Positions 4,736 through 24,747 of a DNA stretch of 64,000 nucleotides are shown piece by piece. The position numbers were made by a program, and so were the translations under genes. The notes under the pieces are model-generated. The model was not told where the DNA came from and made no database searches. It saw nothing but the letters and a program-made list of their open reading frames with translations. Numbering within the stretch: position 1 is the first letter of the stretch; each line of letters opens with the position of its first letter. The stretch is from Candidatus Bathyarchaeia archaeon (lineage in GTDB: Archaea > Thermoproteota > Bathyarchaeia > Bathyarchaeales > Bathycorpusculaceae), in the NCBI GenBank assembly GCA_050012255.1, contig JBEKHN010000005.1, forward strand, positions 1-64,000, read 5' to 3'.

Positions 4736-5620
4736 TTATGAACATATACCTATTTTCATCATCTCTCTTGGATGCCTCAGCATTTTTAAGGGACTTTGAA
4801 AGGTCCCTGCCAGACACCCACAATTGGAGCAGTCCGCATTGTTTCCAAAACACCGCCTTCTGTTCCATGAAGCGTCGAAATGTAACACTTCATCGCCCCA
4901 GTAGCATGGACCAGTATGGTCTGGGTATTCATACCATTTTATCATCGCTTTGCTCAAAAGAAAATCTTTTGGGTATAATGTCTTCACTCGTTTCAGTTCT
5001 TTTACTATGGTTTTTCTCTCCTTTATTCCTACAACCAGAGGAACAGTGACATCGGTTCCACCTGTGCATATGTTACAAACGACACCTTTGAAACCGTTCT
5101 CTTTTGCAATTTTTATAACGTCCTCAAGCTCTTTGTAATTATCCCTCGTGATTGTCATATTGACAACAACACGCTTATCCCCTGAAAAGTTCTTCACCAC
5201 TTTTGAGAAAACATGGTCTCCTCTGATTGAATCATTTGTTTTTTGAGACCCATCTATTGAAGCATAGAGCCTATGATTGAATTCTTCTGGTATCTTAATT
5301 GTTCCGTTTGTTATGACATAGACAAAAGGAAATATCCTGTGGGCAAGCATAAGAACATCAATCCTGAGCGCAGGCTCCCCACCAACCAGAAGAATGTTCC
5401 TAATTCCTGACTTGTACAGTTCTTTGAACCTTTGTTCCCATACGTCTATGGATAGCTCTTGTTTGTTAAATTCGTCTTTACCGTGAAAATGATAGCAATG
5501 TTTGCATCTGAGATTACAGTTGTCCGTCACATCAACTTCTGCAAAATACTTCACTCCAAATATGCTTCTCTTTAGCTCAAGCCAAAATAGGTACAACAAT
5601 GCGCGCGCATATTTTTCCAT
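4736..5620 (-). CDS. radical SAM protein
   Basis: CNLRCKHC (CxxxCxxC), GGEP, TNG and a Cys-rich C-terminus; more AT-rich than its flanks. Confidence 0.9.
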   Translation of the reverse strand: MEKYARALLYLFWLELKRSIFGVKYFAEVDVTDNCNLRCKHCYHFHGKDEFNKQELSIDVWEQRFKELYKSGIRNILLVGGEPALRIDVLMLAHRIFPFVYVITNGTIKIPEEFNHRLYASIDGSQKTNDSIRGDHVFSKVVKNFSGDKRVVVNMTITRDNYKELEDVIKIAKENGFKGVVCNICTGGTDVTVPLVVGIKERKTIVKELKRVKTLYPKDFLLSKAMIKWYEYPDHTGPCYWGDEVLHFDASWNRRRCFGNNADCSNCGCLAGTFQSPLKMLRHPREMMKIGICS

Positions 5621-14854: not shown

Positions 14855-14983
14855 CACCTAACAGAACCTCATTTTCTATGTGTACGCGCCTAGAGGAAGA
14901 AGCCATGACAAGGGTAAGAACTGGCTATTCTTATGTTTTTCGTAGACAAGGACCAATCTGTCTTTATTTCGCGAAATAAGGCT

Positions 14984-15106
14984 TGGTGGGGTCGCTGGGA
15001 TTTGAACCCAGGATCGCCAACGCCCCAGGCTGGTATACTAAACCACTCAAGGTAACGGTAGACCAGTATACTATACAGTCACCGTCACTAGCTATACGAC
15101 GACCCC
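14984..15106 (-). tRNA. tRNA-Pro(GGG), CCA encoded, with a 44-nt insertion (15046-15089) at D-loop position 17/17a
   Basis: GGGGTCGTCGTATAGCT-[44 nt]-TGGTTTAGTATACCAGCCTGGGGCGTTGGCGATCCTGGGTTCAAATCCCAGCGACCCCACCA folds into a 79-nt cloverleaf once the insert is removed. Confidence 0.9.
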
Positions 15107-15990
15107 AACCAGAGATAGCATGCAAAGAACAGATAGATAAGACAATCGCCAAAGCCACAATCGAAGGCAAAGCAAAGAACACAATCAACGCCTTCAGACA
15201 CAGACTAATTGAATTAAGCAGAGTTGCCGACCTAATGAACCCCGACGACGTGAAGAAAGCAATCGGATACTCAAAACTAACAAACTCCTCAAAATGCTCG
15301 TTCGCCCTTGCATATGAATGGTTTACCAAAGCCAACGGACTCAAATGGGAAAAGCCACGATTCAAATGGAACTTAACCACGCCGATTATCCCGACCACCG
15401 ACCAAGTCAACAAGATTATTTCAGCCACCACGCTAAGATTTGCTACAATATTCAAGCTAATGGCAGAAACAGGCGTAGAAGGCGAAGAGCTTCACCAGAC
15501 ACACCGAAACCAATTCGAGCAGACACAAGGAATCATAAGCATAAAAGGCCTCAAAGGACACGGTTCAGCCAACTACAAACTGAAGCCACCGACAGCCGAA
15601 ATGCTCAGAGAATACTTAGCCAAGAATCCGACAGACTACCCATTCCCACGACCATACGTAATGTCAGTCATGTGGCGACGAGCCAGAGAAACCGCTAGCA
15701 AAAACAACAACGACCCATGCCTAAGAACAATACCGATGAAGAACCTTAGAAACTACTCAGGCGCACAATTCTGGTACTCATTCCCAGACCCAATAGGCGT
15801 AATGCGACACCTAAGACACAAACGCATGGAAACAACGATGCACTACCTAAGAGCAATCACGCTGGACGGAGATGTTCAATACGACTGTAAGACAGCCAAA
15901 ACGCCCGAAGAAATCCAGAAGCTAATAGAACTAGGATACACAAAGGCCGACGAAATAGACGGAATACACTTCTACAAGAAACGCAAATAA
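15028..15990 (+). CDS. tyrosine integrase, C-terminal part Int(C) of a split SSV1-type integrase
   Basis: ETGVEGEEL, GLKG, KNLRN, LRHKRMETTMHY; ORF begins inside the att/tRNA. Confidence 0.85.
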   Translation, partial: GWYTKPLKVTVDQYTIQSPSLAIRRPQPEIACKEQIDKTIAKATIEGKAKNTINAFRHRLIELSRVADLMNPDDVKKAIGYSKLTNSSKCSFALAYEWFTKANGLKWEKPRFKWNLTTPIIPTTDQVNKIISATTLRFATIFKLMAETGVEGEELHQTHRNQFEQTQGIISIKGLKGHGSANYKLKPPTAEMLREYLAKNPTDYPFPRPYVMSVMWRRARETASKNNNDPCLRTIPMKNLRNYSGAQFWYSFPDPIGVMRHLRHKRMETTMHYLRAITLDGDVQYDCKTAKTPEEIQKLIELGYTKADEIDGIHFYKKRK

Positions 15991-16292
15991 CCCCCTTTTT
16001 TCTTTAACGCGCGTGCTGTTTTCATTCCTACTAGGCTCTCAAAGAAAGTAGCAACCAAAACAACTGTTCCAGAATCAACTAACCTCAAACCTAAATCCGA
16101 ATACGGATGAATTATAAAAGGAGGACCAGCCACCCAGATGCCCGTCACCTTGATTCCATTAATCCAAGCTGTACCAGGGCCAGCCCCACCGACTGTCTCA
16201 GTGAAAAAATACAATTCTAATCCAATAGTTATGAAAGCAAGACTCACAATGAAGAACACGATTAGAGTTCTTCTACCTAGGCTCACAAACAA
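15972..16292 (-). CDS. small two-TM cargo protein
   Basis: 106-aa ORF with two hydrophobic segments, bracketed by integrase-tail repeats. Confidence 0.55.
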   Translation of the reverse strand: MFVSLGRRTLIVFFIVSLAFITIGLELYFFTETVGGAGPGTAWINGIKVTGIWVAGPPFIIHPYSDLGLRLVDSGTVVLVATFFESLVGMKTARALKKKGGYLRFL

Positions 16293-16338
16293 GCCTCAAT
16301 AACAAGTATGACAAATGCGGTCATTAGTCTTTTTCGTT

Positions 16339-16395
16339 GGATCCGAATACGTAACGGAAATGGACAGAACAAAACTGTTCCGAAAACGCAAATAA
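16339..16395 (+). pseudogene. integrase C-terminal tail remnant
   Basis: GSEYVTEMDRTKLFRKRK* followed by CCCTCCTTTTTTT, mirroring the end of Int(C). Confidence 0.7.
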
Positions 16396-16497
16396 CCCTC
16401 CTTTTTTTCTATCTGTTCAGGCACAAGCCTTGATGCTCCTCGGCTCACGCCTCGTCGCACCCGCAAGAAAAAGAAGCGCGCCCTAAAAGACCTCTAA

Positions 16498-16512
16498 GGA
16501 TAAAACTTTACC
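16498..16512 (+). repeat. GGATAAAACTTTACC dispersed repeat, copy 4 (inside the integrated element)
   Basis: Exact 15-mer followed by CCACACAC. Confidence 0.85.
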
Positions 16513-16639
16513 CCACACACACTTCCCTCCCTTCTTCCATCCTTCTATTACATACATACAATTATATACAGACAGACACAGACAGACAAACAGAAATCTT
16601 TAATCTGCACAGCAACATAAGGCAAACTAGAGGTTCAAA

Positions 16640-17236
16640 TTGTCTCAGCAAGTACCGCCGCCGCCTTCAAGACTTAGAAAAGGCTTTCTCGTAATTGGAT
16701 TAGTACTTTTGATTTTGGGTTTCTTCTTTTTCTATCTAGGAAGTGTTACCAATATTGACCATGTGACTACTTATCAAAATGTCGCTAACCTCAACTCTGG
16801 CGGTATGAGTTGGAACCTTGCCCCTTTATTTGGAAGTGTCTATATATATCCCGCCAATCCTCAAACAGTCCAAACAGTCACCGTGCAACCTCATGATTAT
16901 CTTACTGTAAGTTTTCAAAATGTTTCATACGGCTCTACTAATGGAACAATATACATAGTGTTTTTTTCGCCAATTGACAGTGAGAGTGAGAGTTTTAATG
17001 CACCTCCTGGTGGGCAAAGAATAGTAGCGTATTCTCCGTATGGTTCTCTGGATTTCACGAATAAGGCTAATTTCGAAACGACCATTCAGGTTTATCTTTT
17101 CAGTCAAAACACAGACAACATAATCCCAATTATAACAACCTTAAATCATTACGAAAGACCGCAATGGGTCTATTTTGGTGTTGGTGTAGTTCTTTCGTTA
17201 CTAGCTGTAATTCCGATTTTCAAATCGAAAAAGTAA
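16640..17236 (+). CDS. membrane protein with N- and C-terminal TM helices (cargo)
   Basis: 198-aa AT-rich ORF; two terminal TM segments around a beta-rich domain. Confidence 0.7.
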   Translation: MSQQVPPPPSRLRKGFLVIGLVLLILGFFFFYLGSVTNIDHVTTYQNVANLNSGGMSWNLAPLFGSVYIYPANPQTVQTVTVQPHDYLTVSFQNVSYGSTNGTIYIVFFSPIDSESESFNAPPGGQRIVAYSPYGSLDFTNKANFETTIQVYLFSQNTDNIIPIITTLNHYERPQWVYFGVGVVLSLLAVIPIFKSKK

Positions 17237-17340
17237 GCCTAAGCCATACCGTACAGAAGGCTCTAGCACGACTGAGCAAGCCTTAAAGTGTGGATTTCAC
17301 TTACAAACCTGTTGGATGTGGAATAGGGAAAACGGCTTTT

Positions 17341-17529
17341 TCAAAAGCGCGCGCGCTTTCGCGCTCTTCGCCTCCAACCCAGCACACACCAGCTAACCTC
17401 CAAAACAATCCTATCAGCACCACCACGACAAGACTCATCAACACTCAAATGACCCAAAAACTCGGCCTCAGAATCAAAAACACCCTTACAGAAACGACAG
17501 CAACAAAAGCCACCACGTACAGCCCTCAC
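17341..17529 (-). CDS. small Zn-finger-like protein
   Basis: CRFCKGVFDSEAEFLGH; GTGA overlap with the upstream ORF; runs into GCGCGCGCGC at 17347. Confidence 0.5.
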   Translation of the reverse strand: MRAVRGGFCCCRFCKGVFDSEAEFLGHLSVDESCRGGADRIVLEVSWCVLGWRRRARKRARF

Positions 17530-17777
17530 GTAAGACCATCCGACTCCTCATCATCGAAATCGTCATCATCACCGTAAACAACGTCCTGAGGCAACAACTT
17601 AACACCCTTAGGAACAACAGCCCTACGACACAAATGGTCAGGCTCAGCACCATCCACAAACTGACATGCATCAATACACGATTCAACCCGACAACAATGC
17701 TTCTTATCAAATGGACACTTCTTGACTGAACGCCAATAACGAATCGCCTCCTCACCAAATAACTCACCCTCCAACAT
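17526..17777 (-). CDS. small Cys-rich protein with acidic tail
   Basis: 83-aa ORF directly downstream of rep in the same operon. Confidence 0.5.
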   Translation of the reverse strand: MLEGELFGEEAIRYWRSVKKCPFDKKHCCRVESCIDACQFVDGAEPDHLCRRAVVPKGVKLLPQDVVYGDDDDFDDEESDGLT

Positions 17778-18780
17778 CCATAGCCTCCGCTACCTCTTCC
17801 CAAACAACAACACCGCTCTCCACTAAATCCTCATGAGACTCATACTTAAAATCAGGCGACTCCCTATCAACACACAAATGCCTAGAGCCAAGATAGCGAA
17901 CCTTCACCAACCGACGACCACAATACGGACAAACAGACTTCTTAGCAACATACTTGACTTTCAACTTACGATACGAGCAAACACCAAAGTAAGTAACAAC
18001 GCCAAAACGCTTACGGTCAGTTCTCACTGAAGCATGAGACAATTGGTATTTTGCCGTATCAAAAATAGACCTACGCTCACCCGCAACCCCGCATCCTTCA
18101 TTATCCACGGCAATCTTGACTATCCAACCGTCACGCTTGAAATACTCCCTAGTACGACCCTCAAAACCATCACACTCGGAACAGAACTGCTTCCTACAAG
18201 AACGACAACGATACCCACCCTTAATGAATCCAATTATGTGAAAGTGAGGGCTAAAAAACCAATATCCCGTTGCCCTATTCAAGCGAAAGGCATGACGAAT
18301 CACAGTGCCCCCAATCACGCCACGCCTGCCCAAAGCCTCATAAAGCAATCTATATAATTCATCGAGACTCAAATTGTAACGCTCAGGCGGTACAGAAGCC
18401 ACCACATGATCGCACTTACCAAACTGCTTTTCAGCTTCCAACAGGCGGAACTCAATACTACGAGCCTCACGATACAACCAACTCCTAAAGCATATCGGGC
18501 ACGTCGGCGAATGGCAATGATAGAAAACAGGATGCTGATAGACCTGCTCCCGCCACTTCTCACCCTGCAACTGCAACGGTAACTCATGCCCTTCAACGTT
18601 AAGACAACCCCAACGACCCCGATATTTACCACAATTCTCATTAGTCACAGGCCCATGACCGACGAGCTGATTAACCCCACAACTACCATAACTATCATTA
18701 ACAAACTTCTGATACTCCTCATCGTCAAACTCTTCATCATCAGAGAAATCTACATTAACCAAAGACTGGCGGTCAGCCAT
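17764..18780 (-). CDS. rolling-circle replication initiator (HUH endonuclease Rep)
   Basis: CHSPTCPIC, HVVAS, FSPHFHIIG (HUH motif II), TAKYQLSH (catalytic Tyr motif III), C-terminal CPYC. Confidence 0.78.
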   Translation of the reverse strand: MADRQSLVNVDFSDDEEFDDEEYQKFVNDSYGSCGVNQLVGHGPVTNENCGKYRGRWGCLNVEGHELPLQLQGEKWREQVYQHPVFYHCHSPTCPICFRSWLYREARSIEFRLLEAEKQFGKCDHVVASVPPERYNLSLDELYRLLYEALGRRGVIGGTVIRHAFRLNRATGYWFFSPHFHIIGFIKGGYRCRSCRKQFCSECDGFEGRTREYFKRDGWIVKIAVDNEGCGVAGERRSIFDTAKYQLSHASVRTDRKRFGVVTYFGVCSYRKLKVKYVAKKSVCPYCGRRLVKVRYLGSRHLCVDRESPDFKYESHEDLVESGVVVWEEVAEAMDVGG

Positions 18781-18912
18781 TTAAGAACCCCTCCGTTTAA
18801 AACAAGCACCGAACGGACAGCGATACACACCAATCTCAACAGTCAAAATCGCATGAGCACAATAAGCACCAACAAAACACGAATCGACCTGATTTCCCAC
18901 CCGCTCAACCAT
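18781..18912 (-). CDS. 43-aa Cys-rich peptide
   Basis: MVERVGNQVDSCFVGAYCAHAILTVEIGVYRCPFGACFKRRGS*; GGAGG upstream; stop abuts the rep ATG. Confidence 0.45.
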   Translation of the reverse strand: MVERVGNQVDSCFVGAYCAHAILTVEIGVYRCPFGACFKRRGS

Positions 18913-19106
18913 CAAGAAAACCTCCAACGCAATCGAGAAAGGCTCAAAAAAGAGCCAATCCCAACGCCCGCGAGCATTACGCGGAATGAGCTGTGATCTA
19001 GCACATCGAACATTGCACTGATTCTGCTATGACCCGACATATTAGATCAAAATAACAATAGCAAACACCTTAATAAGCGGTGAAGTTAATTTACCAGTAA
19101 AGGTAG

Positions 19107-19769
19107 TTGACCCCTATGGAGAGAGATACAGACCCATACTGTAACAAAATTTTCTCCTTACTCGTGGCAACCAGAAAGAAAATCAGGTTTAATGAATTGC
19201 ACAAGACACTTAACGCATTGGGAGCCGAGATGTCCAAACCAACTTTAATACAGCACTTACACCATCTCCAGAAAAAAAGCTTCATACTGCGAAAAAAAGA
19301 AGATAAACAAAACGTGACTTACCAAGTCAACTGGAAGAAATTCGAACAATTAGAGAAATCTTTGGAGTTCAAGGAATTAATCGCTCACAACTTAGAGAAC
19401 GAGAAGAGCTTCAAGTCAGAGAGCTTGGAATACCAGATGTATTTCGTAATTGGCATAATGAACATGGTAGATGTCATTGGTCTAAAACTTAATGTAGCCG
19501 CAATCGTTGAACCACAAGGCAAAGCCTATGCCTCACTCGGCTATCTTCTCATTCATAATCTATATGATTCCTACAGGCGATGGTTCCTAGAGAGCTGCAG
19601 ACAATCTAAAGAAAACACCCAGAAGGCATCCAAACTGCTGGACGAAACATTAGAACATTATCAAAAAATTCTTTTCGAACGTTCAGCAAAATTTTCACAA
19701 AACAATAACGCCCCGACAAACTCTAATGAGCGTGCGCGCCGAGAAACTCCCACTACAGATAGTCGCTAG
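19107..19769 (+). CDS. winged-helix (ArsR/HxlR-like) regulator with helical C-terminal domain
   Basis: IRFNELHKTL...MSKPTLIQHLHHL; a paralogous fragment lies at 53027-53411. Confidence 0.8.
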   Translation: MTPMERDTDPYCNKIFSLLVATRKKIRFNELHKTLNALGAEMSKPTLIQHLHHLQKKSFILRKKEDKQNVTYQVNWKKFEQLEKSLEFKELIAHNLENEKSFKSESLEYQMYFVIGIMNMVDVIGLKLNVAAIVEPQGKAYASLGYLLIHNLYDSYRRWFLESCRQSKENTQKASKLLDETLEHYQKILFERSAKFSQNNNAPTNSNERARRETPTTDSR

Positions 19770-19827
19770 CCGACCAATCAAGAAAGAAAAAGAGGACGCA
19801 ACGTCACCTTTCAGGGACGATTACGCT

Positions 19828-20598
19828 CTAGCGAGCATCCGCTCTCTCTCGAAAAACAAATACCAAAACTGCGAAAATGGGAAGCAAAACTACGCCGAAA
19901 TACACTGCATAAGTCAATAACCTCAAAGTGATAATTCCATCAATCACATTTTCGGGATATCCCCATACAGTAGATTGAAAGAGTCTTGAATACATAAGAA
20001 ATGAAATCACAACTGCAAAGTAGCAAATGACGACGACAGAGACCATCTTGAAAATCCTCCTTGCCTTTTCACTACGAAGATTCAATATGCCGCCACACAC
20101 GCTTAGGAATGTCATCGAACCTTCAACAGAAACCAAACCATCAACGATATCAGAAGAGACATAATGTGTGCTAAAGATCACTTTTCCACTACGTAAATCG
20201 CCGCTGTAAGCTTGAAATGCAACGTCGCTATACTCAGACAAATACTTGAAAGTGGTCTGCCCGTCTGTGTCGACTGACAAGTTGTAGGTCTGCATGAAAC
20301 CTCCGACATTGACAAATGCCAGAACAGTTGAATTATGCGATGGTTGAAAAGTGGCATTACCCGAGACGATGATAACTGCATATACCCTTATCGTCCAAGA
20401 TTCTCCAATTACAGGATATCCTTGGGGCGAAACCTCAATTTGAAGAGGATTTATCCATCTGAGAGTTTGAGAAAAAATTACATATGTGCCTCCCCTTACA
20501 GGTTTGCCTAGATAAGAAACAGCAATGTATCCCGCAAGAAATGCTATCATTGCTGTCACTATGACGAGAATCTTCTTTCGATTTACCGCTAATTTCAA
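19828..20598 (-). CDS. multi-pass membrane protein (cargo)
   Basis: 256-aa ORF; N-terminal TM, beta-rich domain, three C-terminal TMs; AGGTGA RBS. Confidence 0.7.
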   Translation of the reverse strand: MKLAVNRKKILVIVTAMIAFLAGYIAVSYLGKPVRGGTYVIFSQTLRWINPLQIEVSPQGYPVIGESWTIRVYAVIIVSGNATFQPSHNSTVLAFVNVGGFMQTYNLSVDTDGQTTFKYLSEYSDVAFQAYSGDLRSGKVIFSTHYVSSDIVDGLVSVEGSMTFLSVCGGILNLRSEKARRIFKMVSVVVICYFAVVISFLMYSRLFQSTVWGYPENVIDGIITLRLLTYAVYFGVVLLPIFAVLVFVFRERADAR

Positions 20599-20615
20599 GG
20601 CGTCACCTAATTCAC

Positions 20616-20858
20616 CTAAGTTTCGTCAAAACTTCTCAAATGGAAATATCTGCCTATCAGACAGGCTCCGACTATCCCAAACATTATCGAAAGCCAACTG
20701 AAACACATTAACGCCCAAAGGGAGTCCGAGGTAATAGTCACAGATGCTCCAAATGTCAGACCAGAAAAAAGCCATTCTCGTACAAGGCCAATGGAAAAAC
20801 CCAAGGAGACAGCAAGGCATGCGATTCCTATCAAGGACATGGTTAACTCTCGTTGCAA
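20616..20858 (-). CDS. small two-TM protein
   Basis: 80-aa hydrophobic ORF upstream of the 256-aa gene. Confidence 0.5.
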   Translation of the reverse strand: MQRELTMSLIGIACLAVSLGFSIGLVREWLFSGLTFGASVTITSDSLWALMCFSWLSIMFGIVGACLIGRYFHLRSFDET

Positions 20859-21224
20859 TAAGACACCCTGCCAAAACCTAGGCGCTTACAGCTTTTAAAA
20901 CATTACGAAAAATAGAATGAATTATCTTAAAAGAAGCTAGGTTCATAGAGGCGCAAGCCAAACTTGTGGAAGAACGTAATGAAGAACTTCTACGCAACAA
21001 TGGATAACACAGCGAATAGACTAAATAATGACGACGAACGATGTCCTCGGAGACATAAGCCTTCCCCTCATTTAAAAAAGAGGAAAAGTTAGAAAGCATC
21101 TCATACGGAAGCCAATCTTGCAACTATGCATGAGCTTCCTATTAGCATCTTGTTATGAAGGCATATTGTCTCCTCGTCCACAAACCGACGGAATCATGAA
21201 AATCAATGAATGAACATCGGAGAT

Positions 21225-21326
21225 ATGAAAATGAGAACCCTTAAAAGAACCCAAGAAGAAATACGACATGCCCAACTATGGGCCGAAATTGAACTCCCAA
21301 AACTTTTAGGAGAAAAGAAGCCATGA
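21225..21326 (+). CDS. 33-aa peptide translationally coupled to Int(N)
   Basis: MKMRTLKRTQEEIRHAQLWAEIELPKLLGEKKP*; GGAG upstream; ATGA overlap with the Int(N) start. Confidence 0.45.
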   Translation: MKMRTLKRTQEEIRHAQLWAEIELPKLLGEKKP

Positions 21327-21433
21327 GCACAGACAAAGCCACAACCGAAAGCAATCTGCAAACAATAACACCTAACAATAAGACAACATCCATAGAATTA
21401 CTAAGGTTGAACGTAGGCTGGTATACTAAACCA
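21323..21433 (+). CDS. integrase N-terminal fragment Int(N)
   Basis: AGGAG RBS; MSTDKATTESNLQTITPNNKTTSIELLRLNV-GWYTKP is in frame with GWYTKP of Int(C) across the att core. Confidence 0.78.
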
Positions 21434-21450
21434 AGCTATACGACGACCCC
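21415..21450 (-). repeat. attR: uninterrupted 5' half of tRNA-Pro
   Basis: GGGGTCGTCGTATAGCTTGGTTTAGTATACCAGCCT, identical to the tRNA 5' half without the 44-nt insert. Confidence 0.92.
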
Positions 21451-21494: not shown

Positions 21495-21599
21495 TTATTT
21501 TCTTTTCCTGAAGAGCTTAGTGTCATCCATCTCTGTAACGTATTCGAATCCTCTTTCTATTAGTTGAGTTGCTTCTTTGAGGGCCTTTGCGGCTTTGCA
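21495..21599 (-). pseudogene. integrase C-terminal remnant of an earlier element
   Basis: CKAAKALKEATQLIERGFEYVTEMDDTKLFRKRK* aligns with Int(C) CKTAKTPEEIQKLIELGYTKADEIDGIHFYKKRK; begins beside GCGCGCGC at 21602. Confidence 0.8.
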
Positions 21600-21793
21600 G
21601 AGCGCGCGCAAATGCGTAATCAAGGAAAAAATGCAAGATCTTAAATGGATTTCATCTAATGCATTTCCACAAGCTTTCTGAAGTCTTTTGTCGGTTCATT
21701 TATTCCAATCATTCGAAGGGCAGCCCACATTGTTGCCTGAGCGCGCGCGTTGACACTGGCGCTCCTGTGGACCAAAATAGGAAAAAGAGTGAG

Positions 21794-24016
21794 TTATGGG
21801 TAGTGTTGGTTGAAGTGGCCTGACTGTATTATGGCGTCGTAGATGTCAACAGTGCCGTCACCGTTGATGTCGCCTAGAATGGTCACCTTAACGGTTCCGC
21901 CTATGAAGTTGTTGTCCGCTATGCTTATTTCGCCTAGAACAGGCCAAGCATAAGCGCTTAACGTGTAGTTGCCATATGCAAAGCCAGTAGTGTCCCATGT
22001 GAACGTAACCGTCGTAGAACTGCCAGCTGGTAAGGTGACGTTTTCTGATCCTATGATGGTTGCGTTGGCGTATGTTGTGACGTTGAAGGTTTCAGTGTAG
22101 CTGCCTTGATTTGCAACTGTGACGTTTATGGTGACGCTGTAGCCTTGATAAACCACAGTCTTAGAAGACGCAACATTAGTGACGGCTACATCATGAACGC
22201 CAAAAGCGTAAACCTTGCCGTCGAGCGAGCCTACGTAAACCACGCCGCCAGCAACAGCAGGAGAAGAAAACACCTCGTTGCCAGTTGCATAGCCCCATAC
22301 GAATGCGCCCGTCGTAGCGTTCAAAGCGTAAACATCGTTGTCGTATGAGCCCACGTAGACGACACCACCAGCAACAGCAGGAGAAGAAGACACCGCCCAG
22401 CCGGTTCCGCAGCTCCATACCTGCGCGCCCGTCGTAGCGTTCAAAGCATAAACCATGTGGTCATATGAGCCCACGTAGACGACACCACCAGCAACAGCAG
22501 GAGAAGAATTCACACTATTGCCTGTTGTGTAGCTCCATATGAATGCGCCCGTCGTAGCGTTCAAAGCGTAAACCATGTGGTCAGTTGAGCCCACGTAGAC
22601 GACACCACCAGCAACAGCAGGAGAAGAGGTCACAAGGTCGCCGGTTGTGCAGCTCCATATGAAAGCACCTGTAGAAGCGTTCAAAGCGTAAACCTTGCCG
22701 TCGACCGAGCCTACGTAAACCACGCCGCCAACAACAACCGGAGAAGAAAACACGAGCCCGCCGGTCGTATAGTTCCATACCTGCGCGCCCGTCATAGCGT
22801 CCAAACAGTAAATCTTGTAATCCCACGATCCCACGTACACCATGCCGTCAGCAACGGCAGGCGAAGAAGTTACTGCGCCACCTGTCGTGTAGTTCCACAC
22901 TTGCGAGCCCGTTGTTGCGTTCAAAGCGTAAACATTGCCGCCCCCAAACAGGGGCCCTGAGCCTACGTAGACGACACCACCAGCAACGGCAGGAGAAGAA
23001 AGCACACTATTGCCTGTTGTGTAGTTCCAGAGAAGTTGGTTTGTGGTTGGCGCCGTTGATGTGGAGTAGCCAGTGTGCGTCAAGTCGCGGTGAAACATCG
23101 GCCACCAGCCAACAGGGAGCTGACCGTTCACTATAACGGTCGCGGTGTTAGACGTTGCTTGCGCTCCTACGCTGTCGGAGACTTCCATATAAACGGTGTA
23201 AGCACCTGCTGACGTAGGCGTAAAGGTCCAGCTGCTAGAAGTGGCGTCTTGAACTGCAGAGCCATTCAAATACCATTGGTACGTGTAAGGCGACGTGCCA
23301 CGAGAGACGCTTGAAGTGAACCACTGAGACTGACCAACACCCAACGTTGCGGAACTAGGCCAAATAGAAGCAGAAAGCGCGGGCGCTAATATGTAGGTTC
23401 CGTCCACAGGTGGATTGCCAGTGTTCGAGGGAGTATCTATGAGTTTGTTACCGTCTATGTCACCTATCTTGACGGTGGTCAAGTGGAAGACGCAGGTCAG
23501 ATTGCCTTCAGCCATAGTCGGAACCTTCAAAACCTGGAATGTAAACGTGGCAGCAGCCAGTTTTCCCTCAGGCGGGTCAGTGGCCGTTGTTACGTTTAAC
23601 GGCGCGTAGCCATCGGCTTGTGCTGTGCCAGAGTCCGACCACGCCTGCGCGTAGTCTGCGTAGCCGGCAGTGTTGTTGTAGGCGAACGATAGATTCCAGA
23701 TGTTGCCCCAGTGTGCGCTTGGTGTTTTTGTTTGAAACAGGATTTCCGTCATGTTCGTGACGCTCAGAAGGGTCGGGTCCCACGTGAAGTGGAACCTGAC
23801 GCCTGCGACGTTTGTGATGTTTACTAGGCTGACGTTTACGTTGAACGTGCTGCCGACGACAAAGACTGGTGGTGGGAACGAGCTCAAGGCCGGGTCTACG
23901 ATGACGTAGGCGTTGGGCTCTGGGTTCACTGCGAACGTTGGAAGTACTGCTGCAAAGCCAAGAAGAGCTGTTACGATCATTAATGCAGAGAGCATTTTAG
24001 CAAAGTTATTCTTCAT
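21794..24016 (-). CDS. secreted surface protein: cohesin-like, PKD/Ig, PQQ-type beta-propeller, CARDB and dockerin-like domains
   Basis: Signal peptide MKNNFAK...; WPMFHRD; about 7 repeats of SSPAVAGGVVYVGS.D..VYALNATTG; HDVAVTNV; GDINGDGTVDIYD. Confidence 0.85.
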   Translation of the reverse strand: MKNNFAKMLSALMIVTALLGFAAVLPTFAVNPEPNAYVIVDPALSSFPPPVFVVGSTFNVNVSLVNITNVAGVRFHFTWDPTLLSVTNMTEILFQTKTPSAHWGNIWNLSFAYNNTAGYADYAQAWSDSGTAQADGYAPLNVTTATDPPEGKLAAATFTFQVLKVPTMAEGNLTCVFHLTTVKIGDIDGNKLIDTPSNTGNPPVDGTYILAPALSASIWPSSATLGVGQSQWFTSSVSRGTSPYTYQWYLNGSAVQDATSSSWTFTPTSAGAYTVYMEVSDSVGAQATSNTATVIVNGQLPVGWWPMFHRDLTHTGYSTSTAPTTNQLLWNYTTGNSVLSSPAVAGGVVYVGSGPLFGGGNVYALNATTGSQVWNYTTGGAVTSSPAVADGMVYVGSWDYKIYCLDAMTGAQVWNYTTGGLVFSSPVVVGGVVYVGSVDGKVYALNASTGAFIWSCTTGDLVTSSPAVAGGVVYVGSTDHMVYALNATTGAFIWSYTTGNSVNSSPAVAGGVVYVGSYDHMVYALNATTGAQVWSCGTGWAVSSSPAVAGGVVYVGSYDNDVYALNATTGAFVWGYATGNEVFSSPAVAGGVVYVGSLDGKVYAFGVHDVAVTNVASSKTVVYQGYSVTINVTVANQGSYTETFNVTTYANATIIGSENVTLPAGSSTTVTFTWDTTGFAYGNYTLSAYAWPVLGEISIADNNFIGGTVKVTILGDINGDGTVDIYDAIIQSGHFNQHYP
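22200..23030 (-). repeat. intragenic ~120-bp tandem repeats (propeller blades)
   Basis: Near-identical units visible with 120-bp periodicity. Confidence 0.85.
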
Positions 24017-24100
24017 TTTTGTTTCTCCCTTCTCCTTATTCTTCACGTATATGTTTCCACTGCACGGACTTGGAGATTCTGAAATTGTCGTAGCGCGCGC

Positions 24101-24161
24101 GAAACACCGAAACCGAGAACAACACAACCAAGACGAAACTAACAACTGCTTTTCTCTTCAT
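24101..24161 (-). pseudogene. orphan signal-peptide fragment
   Basis: GGGGAGAGG RBS, then MKRKAVVSFVLVVLFSVSVF running into CGCGCGCGCTA. Confidence 0.55.
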
Positions 24162-24654: not shown

Positions 24655-24747
24655 CTAAACCAAGCTATACGACGACCCCACAGGGGCAGGTTAGTATTCC
24701 TTGAGGATGTAGCCCTTAAGGCTTTATTCTCTTTTCCTGAATAGCAT
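24655..24747 (-). repeat. third tRNA-Pro 5' fragment plus integrase-tail remnant
   Basis: CTAAACCAAGCTATACGACGACCCC (24655-24679), 44-bp spacer, then MLFRKRE* (24724-24747); similar to 21426-21520. Confidence 0.8.

What the first reader, a model, noticed from the sequence alone, without database searches (positions are those of the whole stretch)
15027..15106. A mobile element that appears to install an intron in its target tRNA, with the intron encoded inside its own integrase gene
Seen: the complete tRNA-Pro(GGG) has a 44-nt insert (15046-15089; minus strand AGTGACGGTGACTGTATAGTATACTGGTCTACCGTTACCTTGAG) at position 17/17a. The displaced 5' halves at 21415-21450 and 24655-24679 lack it. The insert forms an 8-bp helix (GUGACGGU/ACCGUUAC) plus an inner hairpin. 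Its ends fall where the bulge-helix-bulge rule cuts: bulge CU^A, a 4-nt spacer, then AG^U. The central helix AUAG/CUUG has only 2 Watson-Crick pairs, so the motif is relaxed or BHL-like. On the plus strand the same bases are in-frame integrase codons (LKVTVDQYTIQSPSL). Removing them shifts the frame, and the alternative frame is blocked by TAG at 21414, so the insert belongs to the element. Established: tRNA introns have been proposed as a host defence against integrative elements. Inference: here the element itself delivers the intron, giving a route for non-canonical intron gain and possibly shielding the site from competing elements.
Basis: partly seen in the sequence, partly recalled or inferred. 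Interest (0 to 1): 0.9.

Follow-up and report, generated by a model that had tools for sequence, protein, structure and literature searches.

The report
Integrase gene carries a tRNA intron
A small mobile element in a Bathyarchaeia genome has replaced the front of the host's only tRNA-Pro(GGG) gene with its own copy, which carries a 44-base intron-like hairpin that also forms part of the element's integrase gene on the opposite strand, and a whole family of such elements does this, giving a concrete route by which archaeal tRNA genes gain introns.

Summary
tRNA-Pro(GGG) lies on the minus strand at 15106..14984 and carries a 44-nt insert (15046-15089) in the D-loop. The two displaced 5' copies (21450..21415 and 24679..24655) lack it.

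The insert belongs to the element. The integrase ORF is continuous from Int(N) (21323) to Int(C) (stop at 15990) only when the 44 nt are present. In 19 related genomes sampled by tRNA similarity, 5 of 5 genes with antisense integrase sequence upstream carry an insert at this site, and 0 of 14 others do.

Across 74 distinct family members:
- Insert length is never 1 mod 3.
- A helix anchored at the bulge-helix-bulge positions is 91% paired, against about 43% in controls.
- Compensatory changes are many, and G·U outnumbers A·C 82 to 10, which points to an RNA structure on the tRNA strand.

The host has two EndA paralogues and no other tRNA-Pro(GGG) was found. Splicing itself is inferred, because no RNA data could be obtained.

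The idea is not new. Sugahara et al. 2012 proposed an intron-bearing attP from one case. New here are the double coding inside a self-partitioning, XerA-like integrase, the family-wide scale, and related introns that sit without any integrase nearby (G418).

The parts
14984..15106 (-). Reconstituted pre-tRNA-Pro(GGG), 123 nt (79-nt tRNA plus 44-nt insert), CCA encoded
   Evidence: One search gives the sequence. ARAGORN calls tRNA-Pro(ggg), 79 bases, after in-silico removal of the insert; no other tRNA-Pro(GGG) in the 38-contig assembly.
15090..15106 (-). 5' exon (tRNA nt 1-17). It is element-derived after integration. Its antisense encodes the integrase residues AIRRPQ.
15046..15089 (-). 44-nt intron-like insert in the D-loop (16/17 region): a 1-nt bulge base, a 9-bp inner helix, an apical loop, the central-helix strand CUUG and the bulge AG^U. 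Its antisense gives 15 in-frame integrase codons.
   Evidence: Family-wide covariation.
15027..15045 (-). Shared att block (tRNA nt about 17a-33), the inferred crossover region. It is identical to 21415-21433.
   Evidence: The insert stays with Int(C) at tandem junctions.
15107..15990 (+). Int(C), the catalytic part of a tyrosine recombinase. The ORF stays open back through the antisense tRNA to TTG/GTG at 14983/14986.
   Evidence: PF00589, 26.7 bits; 277 homologues; invariant R274, H275, R277, H278, Y287; nearest relatives are XerA.
15991..21322 (.). Body of element 1 (about 6.3 kb between the att copies). Its ORFs have no family assignment.
   Evidence: no Pfam or PHROG function apart from a weak HxlR-like hit at 19107-19769.
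21323..21414 (+). Int(N): an ATG, a 31-codon N/Q/T-rich leader ending in ELLRLNV, running into the att block in the GWYTKP frame. A GGAG lies about 12 nt upstream of the ATG.
   Evidence: Comparable leaders (ELLRL or ELLSPK followed by GIL(N/D)Q or GWYTKP) sit beside displaced halves in other loci.
21415..21450 (-). Displaced 5' part of the tRNA (36 nt, copy B), without the insert.
   Evidence: D11.
21495..21695 (-). Remnant 3' end of a tyrosine recombinase gene that runs in the same direction as the tRNA. Its stop lies about 44 nt upstream of copy B. It marks the right end of an older, decayed element ('element 2').
   Evidence: 66-aa open frame; 24 of 34 residues identical to the C-terminus of P0117, E = 2e-14.
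21794..24145 (-). 783-aa PQQ/beta-propeller, PKD and CARDB repeat protein, lying between copies B and C. It is either cargo or a later insertion in the decayed element 2.
   Evidence: (120-nt repeats).
24655..24679 (-). Displaced 5' part of the tRNA (25 nt, copy C), without the insert. Its upstream region is 77% identical to that of copy B.
   Evidence: D3, D11.

Best explanation
The window holds a Bathyarchaeia chromosome in which a 6.3-kb integrative element sits in the 5' part of the only tRNA-Pro(GGG) gene found.

The attachment site. The element's tyrosine integrase has its attachment site inside its own reading frame, on the opposite strand. The site is an antisense copy of tRNA nt 1 to about 33, and this copy carries a 44-nt hairpin between nt 16/17 and 18.

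Integration. It crosses over in the block 3' of the hairpin (nt about 17a-33; inferred). As a result:
- The host promoter and the intron-free 5' part are displaced to 21450..21415, together with Int(N).
- The working gene now consists of an element-borne promoter (inferred: TTATCTAT at -34..-27, antisense to the conserved QIDKTI codons), the element's 5' exon, the hairpin, and the host's 3' part.

Splicing (inferred, not shown). The hairpin is a relaxed bulge-helix-bulge / bulge-helix-loop intron:
- tRNA nt 12-15 pair with the intron's CUUG.
- The 5' cut falls in the bulge C16 U17^A.
- An 8-9-bp inner helix follows.
- The 3' cut falls after AG^U.
The host's two-subunit EndA is expected to remove it and a ligase to join the exons, restoring a 79-nt tRNA.

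Double constraint. The same 44 bases must keep the integrase frame open and must stay spliceable. Both constraints are visible across the family.

Consequence. Because both att blocks flank the intron, later recombination can leave such introns in genes without an element, or remove them again.
For: Shown directly:
- Sequence and coordinates.
- The integrase ORF is continuous only with the insert.
- ARAGORN calls tRNA-Pro(ggg) only after removal of the 44 nt.
- No second tRNA-Pro(GGG) was found in a genome rated 98.5% complete.

Comparative evidence:
- Among 19 relatives' loci chosen only by tRNA similarity, 5 of 5 with antisense integrase sequence upstream have an insert at the same site, of three unrelated sequence types. 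Of the other 14, 0 have one.
- Of 100 complete genes in all loci, 83 of 85 with Int(C) within 450 nt upstream have an insert. Of 15 without, 13 have none.
- Intact integrase ORFs that contain the insert occur at tandem-element junctions (L051, 338 aa) and in one database protein (P0065).

Coding constraint:
- Among 74 distinct sequences the insert length mod 3 is 0 in 54, 2 in 20 and 1 in 0.
- None of 19 distinct lengths is 1 mod 3.
- The third frame of the window's att block holds TAA.

RNA constraint:
- The 8 pairs anchored at the BHB positions are 363 Watson-Crick plus 82 G.U of 488 cells (91%) in 61 sequences. Shuffles and slid registers give 32-48%.
- G.U outnumbers A.C 82 to 10.
- In the 26-sequence alignment of the 48-nt class, 87.7% of cells pair, against 30-46% when slid. 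12 of 19 pairs change on both sides, and 0 of 500 shuffles reach this.
- The central helix has 3-4 pairs in 59 of 74 sequences.

Host capacity:
- Two EndA paralogues, both above the Pfam cut-off.
- Many intron-bearing tRNAs in the genome, some at positions outside 37/38 according to ARAGORN.
Against: - No RNA evidence of any kind. No RNA run was listed, so splicing, the exact cut sites and expression of the reconstituted gene are all inferred.
- The window's own intron has the weakest central helix in the family (2 of 4 pairs), and no outer helix can form.
- No free circular element was found. Two scans of viral contigs returned nothing, and no fetched contig has terminal overlaps. attP is therefore reconstructed from integrated copies and tandem junctions.
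- The direction of intron transfer is not proven. G418 carries a related intron with no integrase within 19.7 kb. L106 shows the reverse arrangement, with the intron in the displaced half and none in the working gene.
- 13 of 74 sequences do not fit the anchored model: their H' does not begin with CU, and 9 have no anchored helix.
- The loci are not independent. Most come from a few metagenome series and were fetched through the integrase.
Confidence: 0.8

Rival explanations
1. The 44-nt insert is a native host intron that predates the element. The element merely crossed over 5' of it, and its presence inside the integrase ORF is a by-product.
For: Topologically possible if the crossover lay in tRNA nt 1-16. 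G418 shows an intron at this site without an adjacent integrase. L055, L067 and L077 show displaced halves with non-integrase upstream sequence that do carry an insert.
Against: - The element-free same-genus genome G002 and 13 other genera lack any insert.
- Within one genus, three unrelated insert types each accompany a different integrase subtype.
- The window's Int(N) is in the frame that needs the 44 nt.
- Insert length is never 1 mod 3.
- Inserts lie inside intact integrase ORFs at tandem junctions.
- Both displaced copies in the window lack the insert.
Confidence: 0.04
2. The insert is not spliced. Integration inactivates or cripples tRNA-Pro(GGG), the host gets by with tRNA-Pro(UGG) and tRNA-Pro(CGG), and the hairpin is kept for another reason.
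For: There is no RNA evidence. The central helix is weak and the outer helix is missing in the window's copy. tRNA-Pro(TGG) and tRNA-Pro(CGG) genes exist.
Against: - The helix is anchored exactly where the BHB rule places it relative to both exon ends, in 61 of 74 sequences.
- The central-helix partner covaries with tRNA nt 12 (C.G in 4 sequences, A.U in 2).
- The G.U over A.C bias points to selection on the tRNA-sense RNA.
- The flanking exons remain a perfect cloverleaf.
- From general knowledge: archaea normally need a GNN tRNA to read CCU and CCC.
Confidence: 0.1
3. The hairpin is mainly a DNA- or mRNA-level element of the integrase system, for example an extra integrase-binding or synapsis site, or a regulator of integrase translation. 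On this view its ability to be spliced is a secondary adaptation.
For: The apical loop holds a nucleotide motif (GGTATACT-like) that is read in different protein frames in different length classes, so it is conserved as nucleic acid. The motif is complementary to tRNA nt 21-28: a perfect 8 of 8 match in 13 of 78 sequences and 7 of 8 in 31. It changes with the exon variant in some cases (L101).
Against: - Stem sequences differ freely between integrases that are 85-88% identical. That is not expected of a protein-binding site.
- G.U pairs are tolerated and A.C pairs are not.
- The similarity signal is modest: mean 8.5 of 12 against 7.3 for shuffles.
- This reading does not exclude splicing. It could only add a function.
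Confidence: 0.06

Closest known systems
Intron-bearing attP model of tRNA intron gain (Sugahara et al. 2012, PLoS One 7:e32504, Caldiarchaeum subterraneum tRNA-Thr(GGU); restated in the review PMC8371274)
   Same: The reconstituted tRNA carries an extra intron, and a displaced 5' fragment lacks it. A recombinase gene adjoins the tRNA. The authors propose recombination between an attP that contains an intron and an intron-free attB, and suggest the intron may protect the resident element from later invaders (Discussion read; review passage).
   Different: That was a single locus in one population. The recombinase lay on the same strand and did not overlap the tRNA (judged pNOB8-like), the intron was at 24/25, and there was no coding overlap and no family-wide test. 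Here the intron lies inside the integrase ORF on the opposite strand. At least 74 distinct versions exist with covariation and a frame constraint. Examples are seen both of introns left behind without an integrase and of intron removal.
SSV-type ('type I', 'suicidal') archaeal integrases (SSV1, pTN3, pT26-2)
   Same: attP lies inside the int ORF and overlaps a tRNA gene. Integration splits int into Int(N) and Int(C) at the two ends of the element (passages read).
   Different: By sequence this integrase is not in that family. Pfam gives only PF00589 at 26.7 bits and no PF16795. The nearest solved structures and NCBIfam model are XerA. It targets the 5' part of the tRNA. Int(N) is only a 9-45-residue leader. 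Tandem arrays with rebuilt intact int genes occur, whereas Badel et al. 2020 state these were never observed for suicidal integrases (passage). The hosts are Bathyarchaeia recovered from metagenomes, not the hyperthermophiles the review associates with suicidal integration.
Non-canonical archaeal tRNA introns with relaxed BHB (HBh' or BHL) motifs, as in Thermoproteales
   Same: The intron lies outside position 37/38, with a 4-bp central helix made from exon and intron, 3-nt bulges and an intron-internal helix. The host has two EndA paralogues, as in lineages with the broad-specificity heterotetramer. (The motif rule and the enzyme types are recalled, with abstracts seen in the listing.)
   Different: Proposed arrival there is transposition between tRNA genes (Fujishima 2010, known to me only through the passages). 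Here the carrier is an integrase gene's attP, and the intron is also protein-coding on the other strand.

Membership tests
Archaeal BHB (hBHBh') tRNA intron | 4-bp central helix between the two cut sites | tested here: inconclusive
   The window has 2 of 4 standard pairs (AUAG against CUUG). Relatives have 3-4 of 4 in 59 of 74. Columns 13-15 pair in 26 of 26 sequences of the 48-nt class.
Archaeal BHB (hBHBh') tRNA intron | Two 3-nt bulges, each cut after its second base, placed symmetrically (rule recalled, not taken from a call) | tested here: met
   The only excision that restores the D-loop of copies B and C places the cuts at CU^A and AG^U, each directly 3' of a central-helix strand.
Archaeal BHB (hBHBh') tRNA intron | Intron-internal helix (h') adjoining the 5' bulge | tested here: met
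   9 contiguous pairs in the window. 91% of anchored cells are paired across 61 sequences, with compensatory changes.
Archaeal BHB (hBHBh') tRNA intron | Outer exon-exon helix (h) closing the 3' bulge | tested here: not met
   Only U11.G18 could pair, by reading. The motif is therefore of the relaxed BHL/HBh' kind, not the strict one.
Archaeal BHB (hBHBh') tRNA intron | Cleavage by EndA and ligation to a functional tRNA | not testable with these tools
   No RNA run was listed. The host does encode two EndA paralogues.
Tyrosine recombinase superfamily | Catalytic domain with the R...HxxR...Y residues | tested here: met
   PF00589 over residues 139-290 scores 26.7 bits, just under the 27.1 cut-off, for this sequence. 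It is precomputed for many homologues. R274, H275, R277, H278 and Y287 are invariant in 39 sequences. XerA structures match at E = 4.7e-7.
SSV-type / suicidal integrase (architecture) | attP inside the int ORF, with int split into Int(N) and Int(C) on integration | tested here: met
   In-silico rejoining gives one ORF. Conserved Int(N) leaders sit beside displaced halves, and intact genes occur at tandem junctions. The frame constraint on insert length points the same way. No free form was seen.
SSV-type / suicidal integrase (sequence family, Pfam PF16795) | Match to Phage_integr_3 or to the SSV1/pTN3/pT26-2 integrases | tested here: not met
   The Pfam scan at E <= 0.01 returns only PF00589. 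A profile search of the PDB at E <= 1 returns only two XerA-type chains.
Sugahara-type intron-bearing attP | The rebuilt tRNA has an intron that the displaced direct repeat lacks, and the intron is contributed by the element | tested here: met

The most novel reading that the evidence does not exclude
A widespread Bathyarchaeia integrase family acts as a shuttle for spliceable tRNA introns.

- The intron is double-coded. On the tRNA strand it is a BHB-type intron. On the other strand it supplies leader codons of a self-partitioning, XerA-derived integrase.
- Site-specific recombination on either side of the intron installs it in host tRNA-Pro(GGG) genes, swaps it between them, leaves it behind or removes it.

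This would be the first family-scale, mechanistically explicit route for the arrival of non-canonical archaeal tRNA introns. It would also be an independent origin of the 'suicidal' integrase architecture outside the SSV/pTN3/pT26-2 clade.
Probability: 0.55. Interest if true: 0.85.

Novelty: new variant of a known kind. Interest (0 to 1): 0.72.

Why it matters
How non-canonical tRNA introns arrive is still treated as open. [quoted passage not shown]

The only mobile-element model I found in print rests on one Caldiarchaeum locus. This family supplies many natural replicates, and each step can be tested:
- an attP with an intron;
- an attB without one;
- displaced halves that record the earlier state;
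- tandem junctions;
- genes that kept the intron with no integrase left nearby.

It also shows one stretch of DNA under two simultaneous constraints on opposite strands, an open integrase frame and a spliceable RNA. And it extends the self-partitioning integrase architecture to a different recombinase lineage, in hosts outside the hyperthermophiles the review links it to.

Tried and rejected
RNA evidence. The look-up of sequencing runs listed no RNA holder. This says nothing either way about expression.

Free elements. Two scans of viral contigs, one with the protein and one with the alignment, found no relative. None of the fetched loci has terminal direct overlaps. Among 120 stored homologues only P0065 looks like an intact, non-integrated-type gene.

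Rfam. In the region it gave only a sub-threshold tmRNA-like match over 14984-15106 (27.6 bits against a gathering score of 47) and a weak mascRNA match. I read these as the acceptor and T arms of the interrupted tRNA, not as tmRNA.

Other copies. tblastn of Int(C) against the whole genome found only the window's own copy, so I could not ask whether other tRNAs of this genome use the same arrangement.

Element cargo. Pfam and PHROGs gave no function for the element's other ORFs, so I cannot say whether it is viral or plasmid-like.

'Native promoter'. I first treated the sequence upstream of the displaced halves as native host promoter. Searches showed that part of it is the decayed 3' end of a recombinase gene running in the same direction as the tRNA. 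I therefore speak of 'no antisense integrase upstream' and not of 'element-free'.

Intron origin. I considered that the intron began as a duplicate of the neighbouring exon block. The similarity is only modestly above shuffles, so I leave it as a note.

Not attempted. A tree-based test of introns against integrase lineage, because host and element are physically linked in integrated copies and the test would not discriminate.

Unavailable. Supplementary files of the papers were not consulted; those of Sugahara 2012 and Badel 2020 might hold further att alignments.

Full report
**What is there**

On the minus strand the window encodes a tRNA-Pro(GGG) from 15106 to 14984, with CCA encoded. A 44-nt insert (15089..15046) interrupts its D-loop between ...UAGCU and UGGUUUAG....

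Two partial 5' copies lie further along: 21450..21415 (36 nt) and 24679..24655 (25 nt). Both read through the D-loop without the insert.

ARAGORN sees no tRNA in the window or in the unspliced stretch. It calls a normal 79-nt tRNA-Pro(ggg) once the 44 nt are removed in silico.

No other tRNA-Pro(GGG) was found in the assembly. ARAGORN with introns allowed finds Pro(TGG) and Pro(CGG) elsewhere, and the exact 5' and 3' parts occur only on this contig. The assembly has 38 contigs and is rated 98.5% complete. Record titles of close relatives and one source name place the organism in Bathyarchaeia.

**The insert belongs to the element**

The plus-strand ORF 14983-15990 is a tyrosine recombinase:
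- PF00589 over residues 139-290 scores 26.7 bits.
- It has 277 homologues.
- R, H, R, H and Y are invariant.

The ORF reads antisense through the whole tRNA and the insert.

A short ORF starting at ATG 21323 runs into copy B in the same frame as the integrase uses in the shared block. Joining 21323..21414 to 15027..15990 in a script gives one uninterrupted ORF. Leaving out the 44 nt breaks the frame. This is the architecture in which attP lies inside the integrase gene and integration splits it into Int(N) and Int(C).

**Relatives settle the origin**

I fetched the tRNA-Pro(GGG) locus from 40 related genomes by tRNA similarity alone and inspected 19 loci from relatives.
- Five same-genus genomes have an insert at exactly this site, of three unrelated sequence types (44, 54 and 48 nt). 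All five have integrase or integrase-derived antisense sequence running straight into the tRNA 5' end.
- The remaining same-genus genome (G002) and 13 other genera have neither.

In 87 further loci fetched through the integrase the pattern holds. Over all 100 complete genes:
- 83 of 85 with an Int(C) homologue within 450 nt upstream carry an insert of 35-98 nt.
- 13 of 15 without such a homologue carry none.

The four exceptions are instructive:
- L017 has only a short recombinase remnant running in the tRNA's direction.
- L003 has a frame-broken integrase.
- L106 and L112 are discussed below.

These loci are not independent, and most were selected for having the integrase. The 19-locus sample is the unbiased one.

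**Two constraints on the same bases**

*Coding.* Among 74 distinct versions of 5' exon + insert + att block, insert length mod 3 is 0 in 54, 2 in 20 and 1 in none. None of the 19 distinct lengths is 1 mod 3. One of these, 21 nt at L042, is an artefact of overlapping anchors. The third frame of the window's block contains TAA. Translation must therefore enter the insert from Int(N). If it started downstream, insert length would be free.

Int(N) itself is a start codon plus a 9-45-residue N/Q/T-rich leader ending in ELLRL or ELLSPK. It recurs beside displaced halves in many loci. An intact 338-aa gene with the insert inside it sits at a tandem-element junction in L051, and one database protein (P0065) has the same form.

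*RNA.* I applied the bulge-helix-bulge rule as I recall it: a 4-bp central helix, with each strand followed by a 3-nt bulge that is cut after its second base. Under this rule the only excision that restores the D-loop of copies B and C gives:
- central helix nt 12-15 with the intron's last-but-two four bases;
- bulges CU^A and AG^U;
- an intron-internal helix that starts one base inside the 5' cut and ends directly before the central-helix strand.

In the 61 of 74 sequences whose central-helix strand begins with CU, the eight anchored pairs are 363 Watson-Crick plus 82 G.U of 488 cells (91%). Composition shuffles give about 43%, and registers slid by 1-3 give 32-48%.

The stems differ completely between insert types, for example GUGACGGUG/UACCGUUAC, GAAGCGGGA/UCCCGUUUC and CCGAAUUGG/CCAAUUCGG.

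On the 26-sequence alignment of the 48-nt class, 87.7% of cells pair, against 30-46% when slid. 12 of 19 pairs change on both sides, and 0 of 500 shuffles reach this.

Non-Watson-Crick cells are G.U 82 times and A.C 10 times. The selected structure is therefore on the tRNA-sense transcript, not on the integrase mRNA or in duplex DNA.

The central helix has 3-4 pairs in 59 of 74. The window's copy is the weakest, with 2, and no outer exon-exon helix can form. The motif is thus of the relaxed bulge-helix-loop kind.

The genome encodes two separate EndA paralogues, both above the Pfam cut-off. One resembles the catalytic subunit. The other resembles the N-terminal repeat or beta subunit. I infer this fits the heterotetrameric, broad-specificity enzyme.

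**Mechanism proposed**

- Shown: the insert and the 5' exon travel with Int(C). The displaced half keeps the earlier upstream region and lacks the insert.
- Inferred: the crossover lies in the 19-nt block 3' of the insert. At tandem junctions the first element's insert stays attached to its Int(C) while the next element's Int(N) follows the block (L051, L048/L049, L021, L027, L050, L094).
- Inferred: the rebuilt gene is transcribed from an AT-rich box (TTATCTAT at -34..-27). This box is the antisense of the conserved QIDKTI codons and recurs in relatives.
- Inferred: EndA and a ligase remove the 44 nt.

**Introns left behind and taken away**

A pattern scan of 401 Bathyarchaeia genomes found five, including the window's own genome, with a 34-64-nt insert at this site.
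- Three of the four new ones have antisense integrase sequence upstream. One of those is frame-broken.
- G418 has a 39-nt BHB-fitting intron. Its upstream region is promoter-like, there is no integrase homologue within 19.7 kb upstream, and there is no second 5' copy. Its intron resembles the element-borne intron of G374, a genome of a different family, with compensating stem changes (read from the matched sequences printed).

In L055/L067 and L077 the displaced half has the same non-integrase upstream sequence as insert-free counterparts (L054, L039/L086/L090) yet carries an insert. So a gene without an antisense integrase already had an intron when the next element arrived.

L106 is the mirror image. 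The displaced half has a 51-nt insert, while the working tRNA, with Int(C) upstream, has none. That is intron loss through integration of an insert-free element.

Exchange in both directions follows naturally from having two homology blocks around the intron.

**What it is related to**

The integrase works like an SSV-type 'suicidal' integrase but is not a member of that sequence family:
- There is no PF16795 match.
- The nearest solved structures and NCBIfam model are XerA.

The idea that an attP containing an intron recombines with an intron-free attB was published for one Caldiarchaeum tRNA-Thr locus, with a non-overlapping recombinase on the same strand. The same paper suggested that this could keep later invaders out (Sugahara et al. 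2012; abstract, passages and Discussion read). A 2021 review repeats it (passage).

Six full-text searches found no report of an intron inside an integrase ORF, nor of this Bathyarchaeia family. A 2026 preprint on Asgard tRNA introns states that the arrival route remains open.

The exclusion idea is not borne out for the element's own family, since tandem arrays and re-integration are frequent. However, the intron does split the 25-nt att (nt 1-25) shared by copies B and C. That att belongs to a second, older element type whose recombinase ran in the same direction as the tRNA. Its remnant 3' end lies about 44 nt upstream of copy B. Exclusion of that rival type is possible but untested.

**Limits**

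- No RNA data.
- No free circular element.
- Related and integrase-selected loci.
- The BHB rule and the EndA classes are taken from recall.
- 13 of 74 sequences do not fit the simple anchored model. Some have different boundaries or a duplicated D-loop segment (L098-L100, L025, L062).

**Verdict**

- Novelty is that of a new, well-replicated variant of a proposed mechanism.
- Confidence is about 0.95 that the insert is element-borne and about 0.8 that it is a spliced intron.

Noticed in passing
window 21495-21695 (-); also window 24680-24745, L098, L100, L052, L017, L115 (G418): Directly upstream of the displaced 5' halves, and of some uninterrupted tRNA-Pro(GGG) genes in other genera, lies the decayed 3' end of a tyrosine recombinase gene that runs in the same direction as the tRNA (tail ...GFEYVTE.D..KLFRKRK*, stop 24-44 nt before tRNA +1). 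The window's remnant is 24 of 34 residues identical to the C-terminus of family member P0117. The same integrase family therefore also occurs in a classical, non-overlapping arrangement, and the tRNA's 'native' promoter region is partly element-derived.
   Followed up: partly
L051 (tRNA-sense position 5505), L048/L049, L021 (5085), L027, L050, L094: Tandem arrays of self-partitioning elements occur in one tRNA. The junction between neighbours rebuilds an intact or hybrid integrase gene (338-aa ORF in L051). Badel et al. 2020 state that tandem integration was never observed for suicidal integrases (passage).
   Followed up: partly
window 14983-15106 (+) and homologues P0001, P0013, P0020, P0057: After integration the Int(C) ORF stays open across the whole antisense tRNA, in both frames the family uses. 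It reaches TTG/GTG start codons formed by the antisense of the CCA end. Integration may therefore not silence this integrase completely.
   Followed up: no
window 15060-15075 (intron apex); columns 38-46 of alignment A2: The intron apex carries a nucleotide motif (GGTATACT-like) that is read in different protein frames in different length classes. It is complementary to tRNA nt 21-28: a perfect 8 of 8 match in 13 of 78 sequences and 7 of 8 in 31. In some loci it changes with the exon variant (L101). It could be an RNA pairing, an integrase site or a trace of the intron's origin.
   Followed up: partly
L106 (tRNA-sense positions 498 and 2738): Reverse configuration: the displaced 5' half carries a 51-nt insert and the working tRNA beside Int(C) has none. 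An insert-free member of the family appears to have removed an intron from the working gene.
   Followed up: partly
L056-L059: In this lineage the same tRNA-Pro(GGG) also has a second insertion of about 20 nt at the canonical anticodon-loop position, so the gene carries two introns.
   Followed up: no
L098, L100, L099 (position 2): Here the extra sequence is flanked by a duplicated D-loop/D-stem segment (TGGTCTAGGA twice), so the intron boundaries are ambiguous. This may hint that such inserts arise by partial duplication of the att block.
   Followed up: no
L002 / L021 (G001, same genus): The otherwise near-identical tRNA has one extra A in the anticodon stem (CCAGACCU). It is either an assembly error or a damaged gene.
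   Followed up: no
window 22083-23029: Six to seven 120-nt (40-residue) repeats lie inside the 783-aa PQQ/beta-propeller, PKD and CARDB protein gene, which sits between the two displaced tRNA halves.
   Followed up: no
G000 whole genome: ARAGORN with introns allowed reports 44 tRNA genes, many with introns of 9-89 nt and some placed outside 37/38. Several isoacceptors may be missed because of non-canonical introns, as this one was.
   Followed up: no
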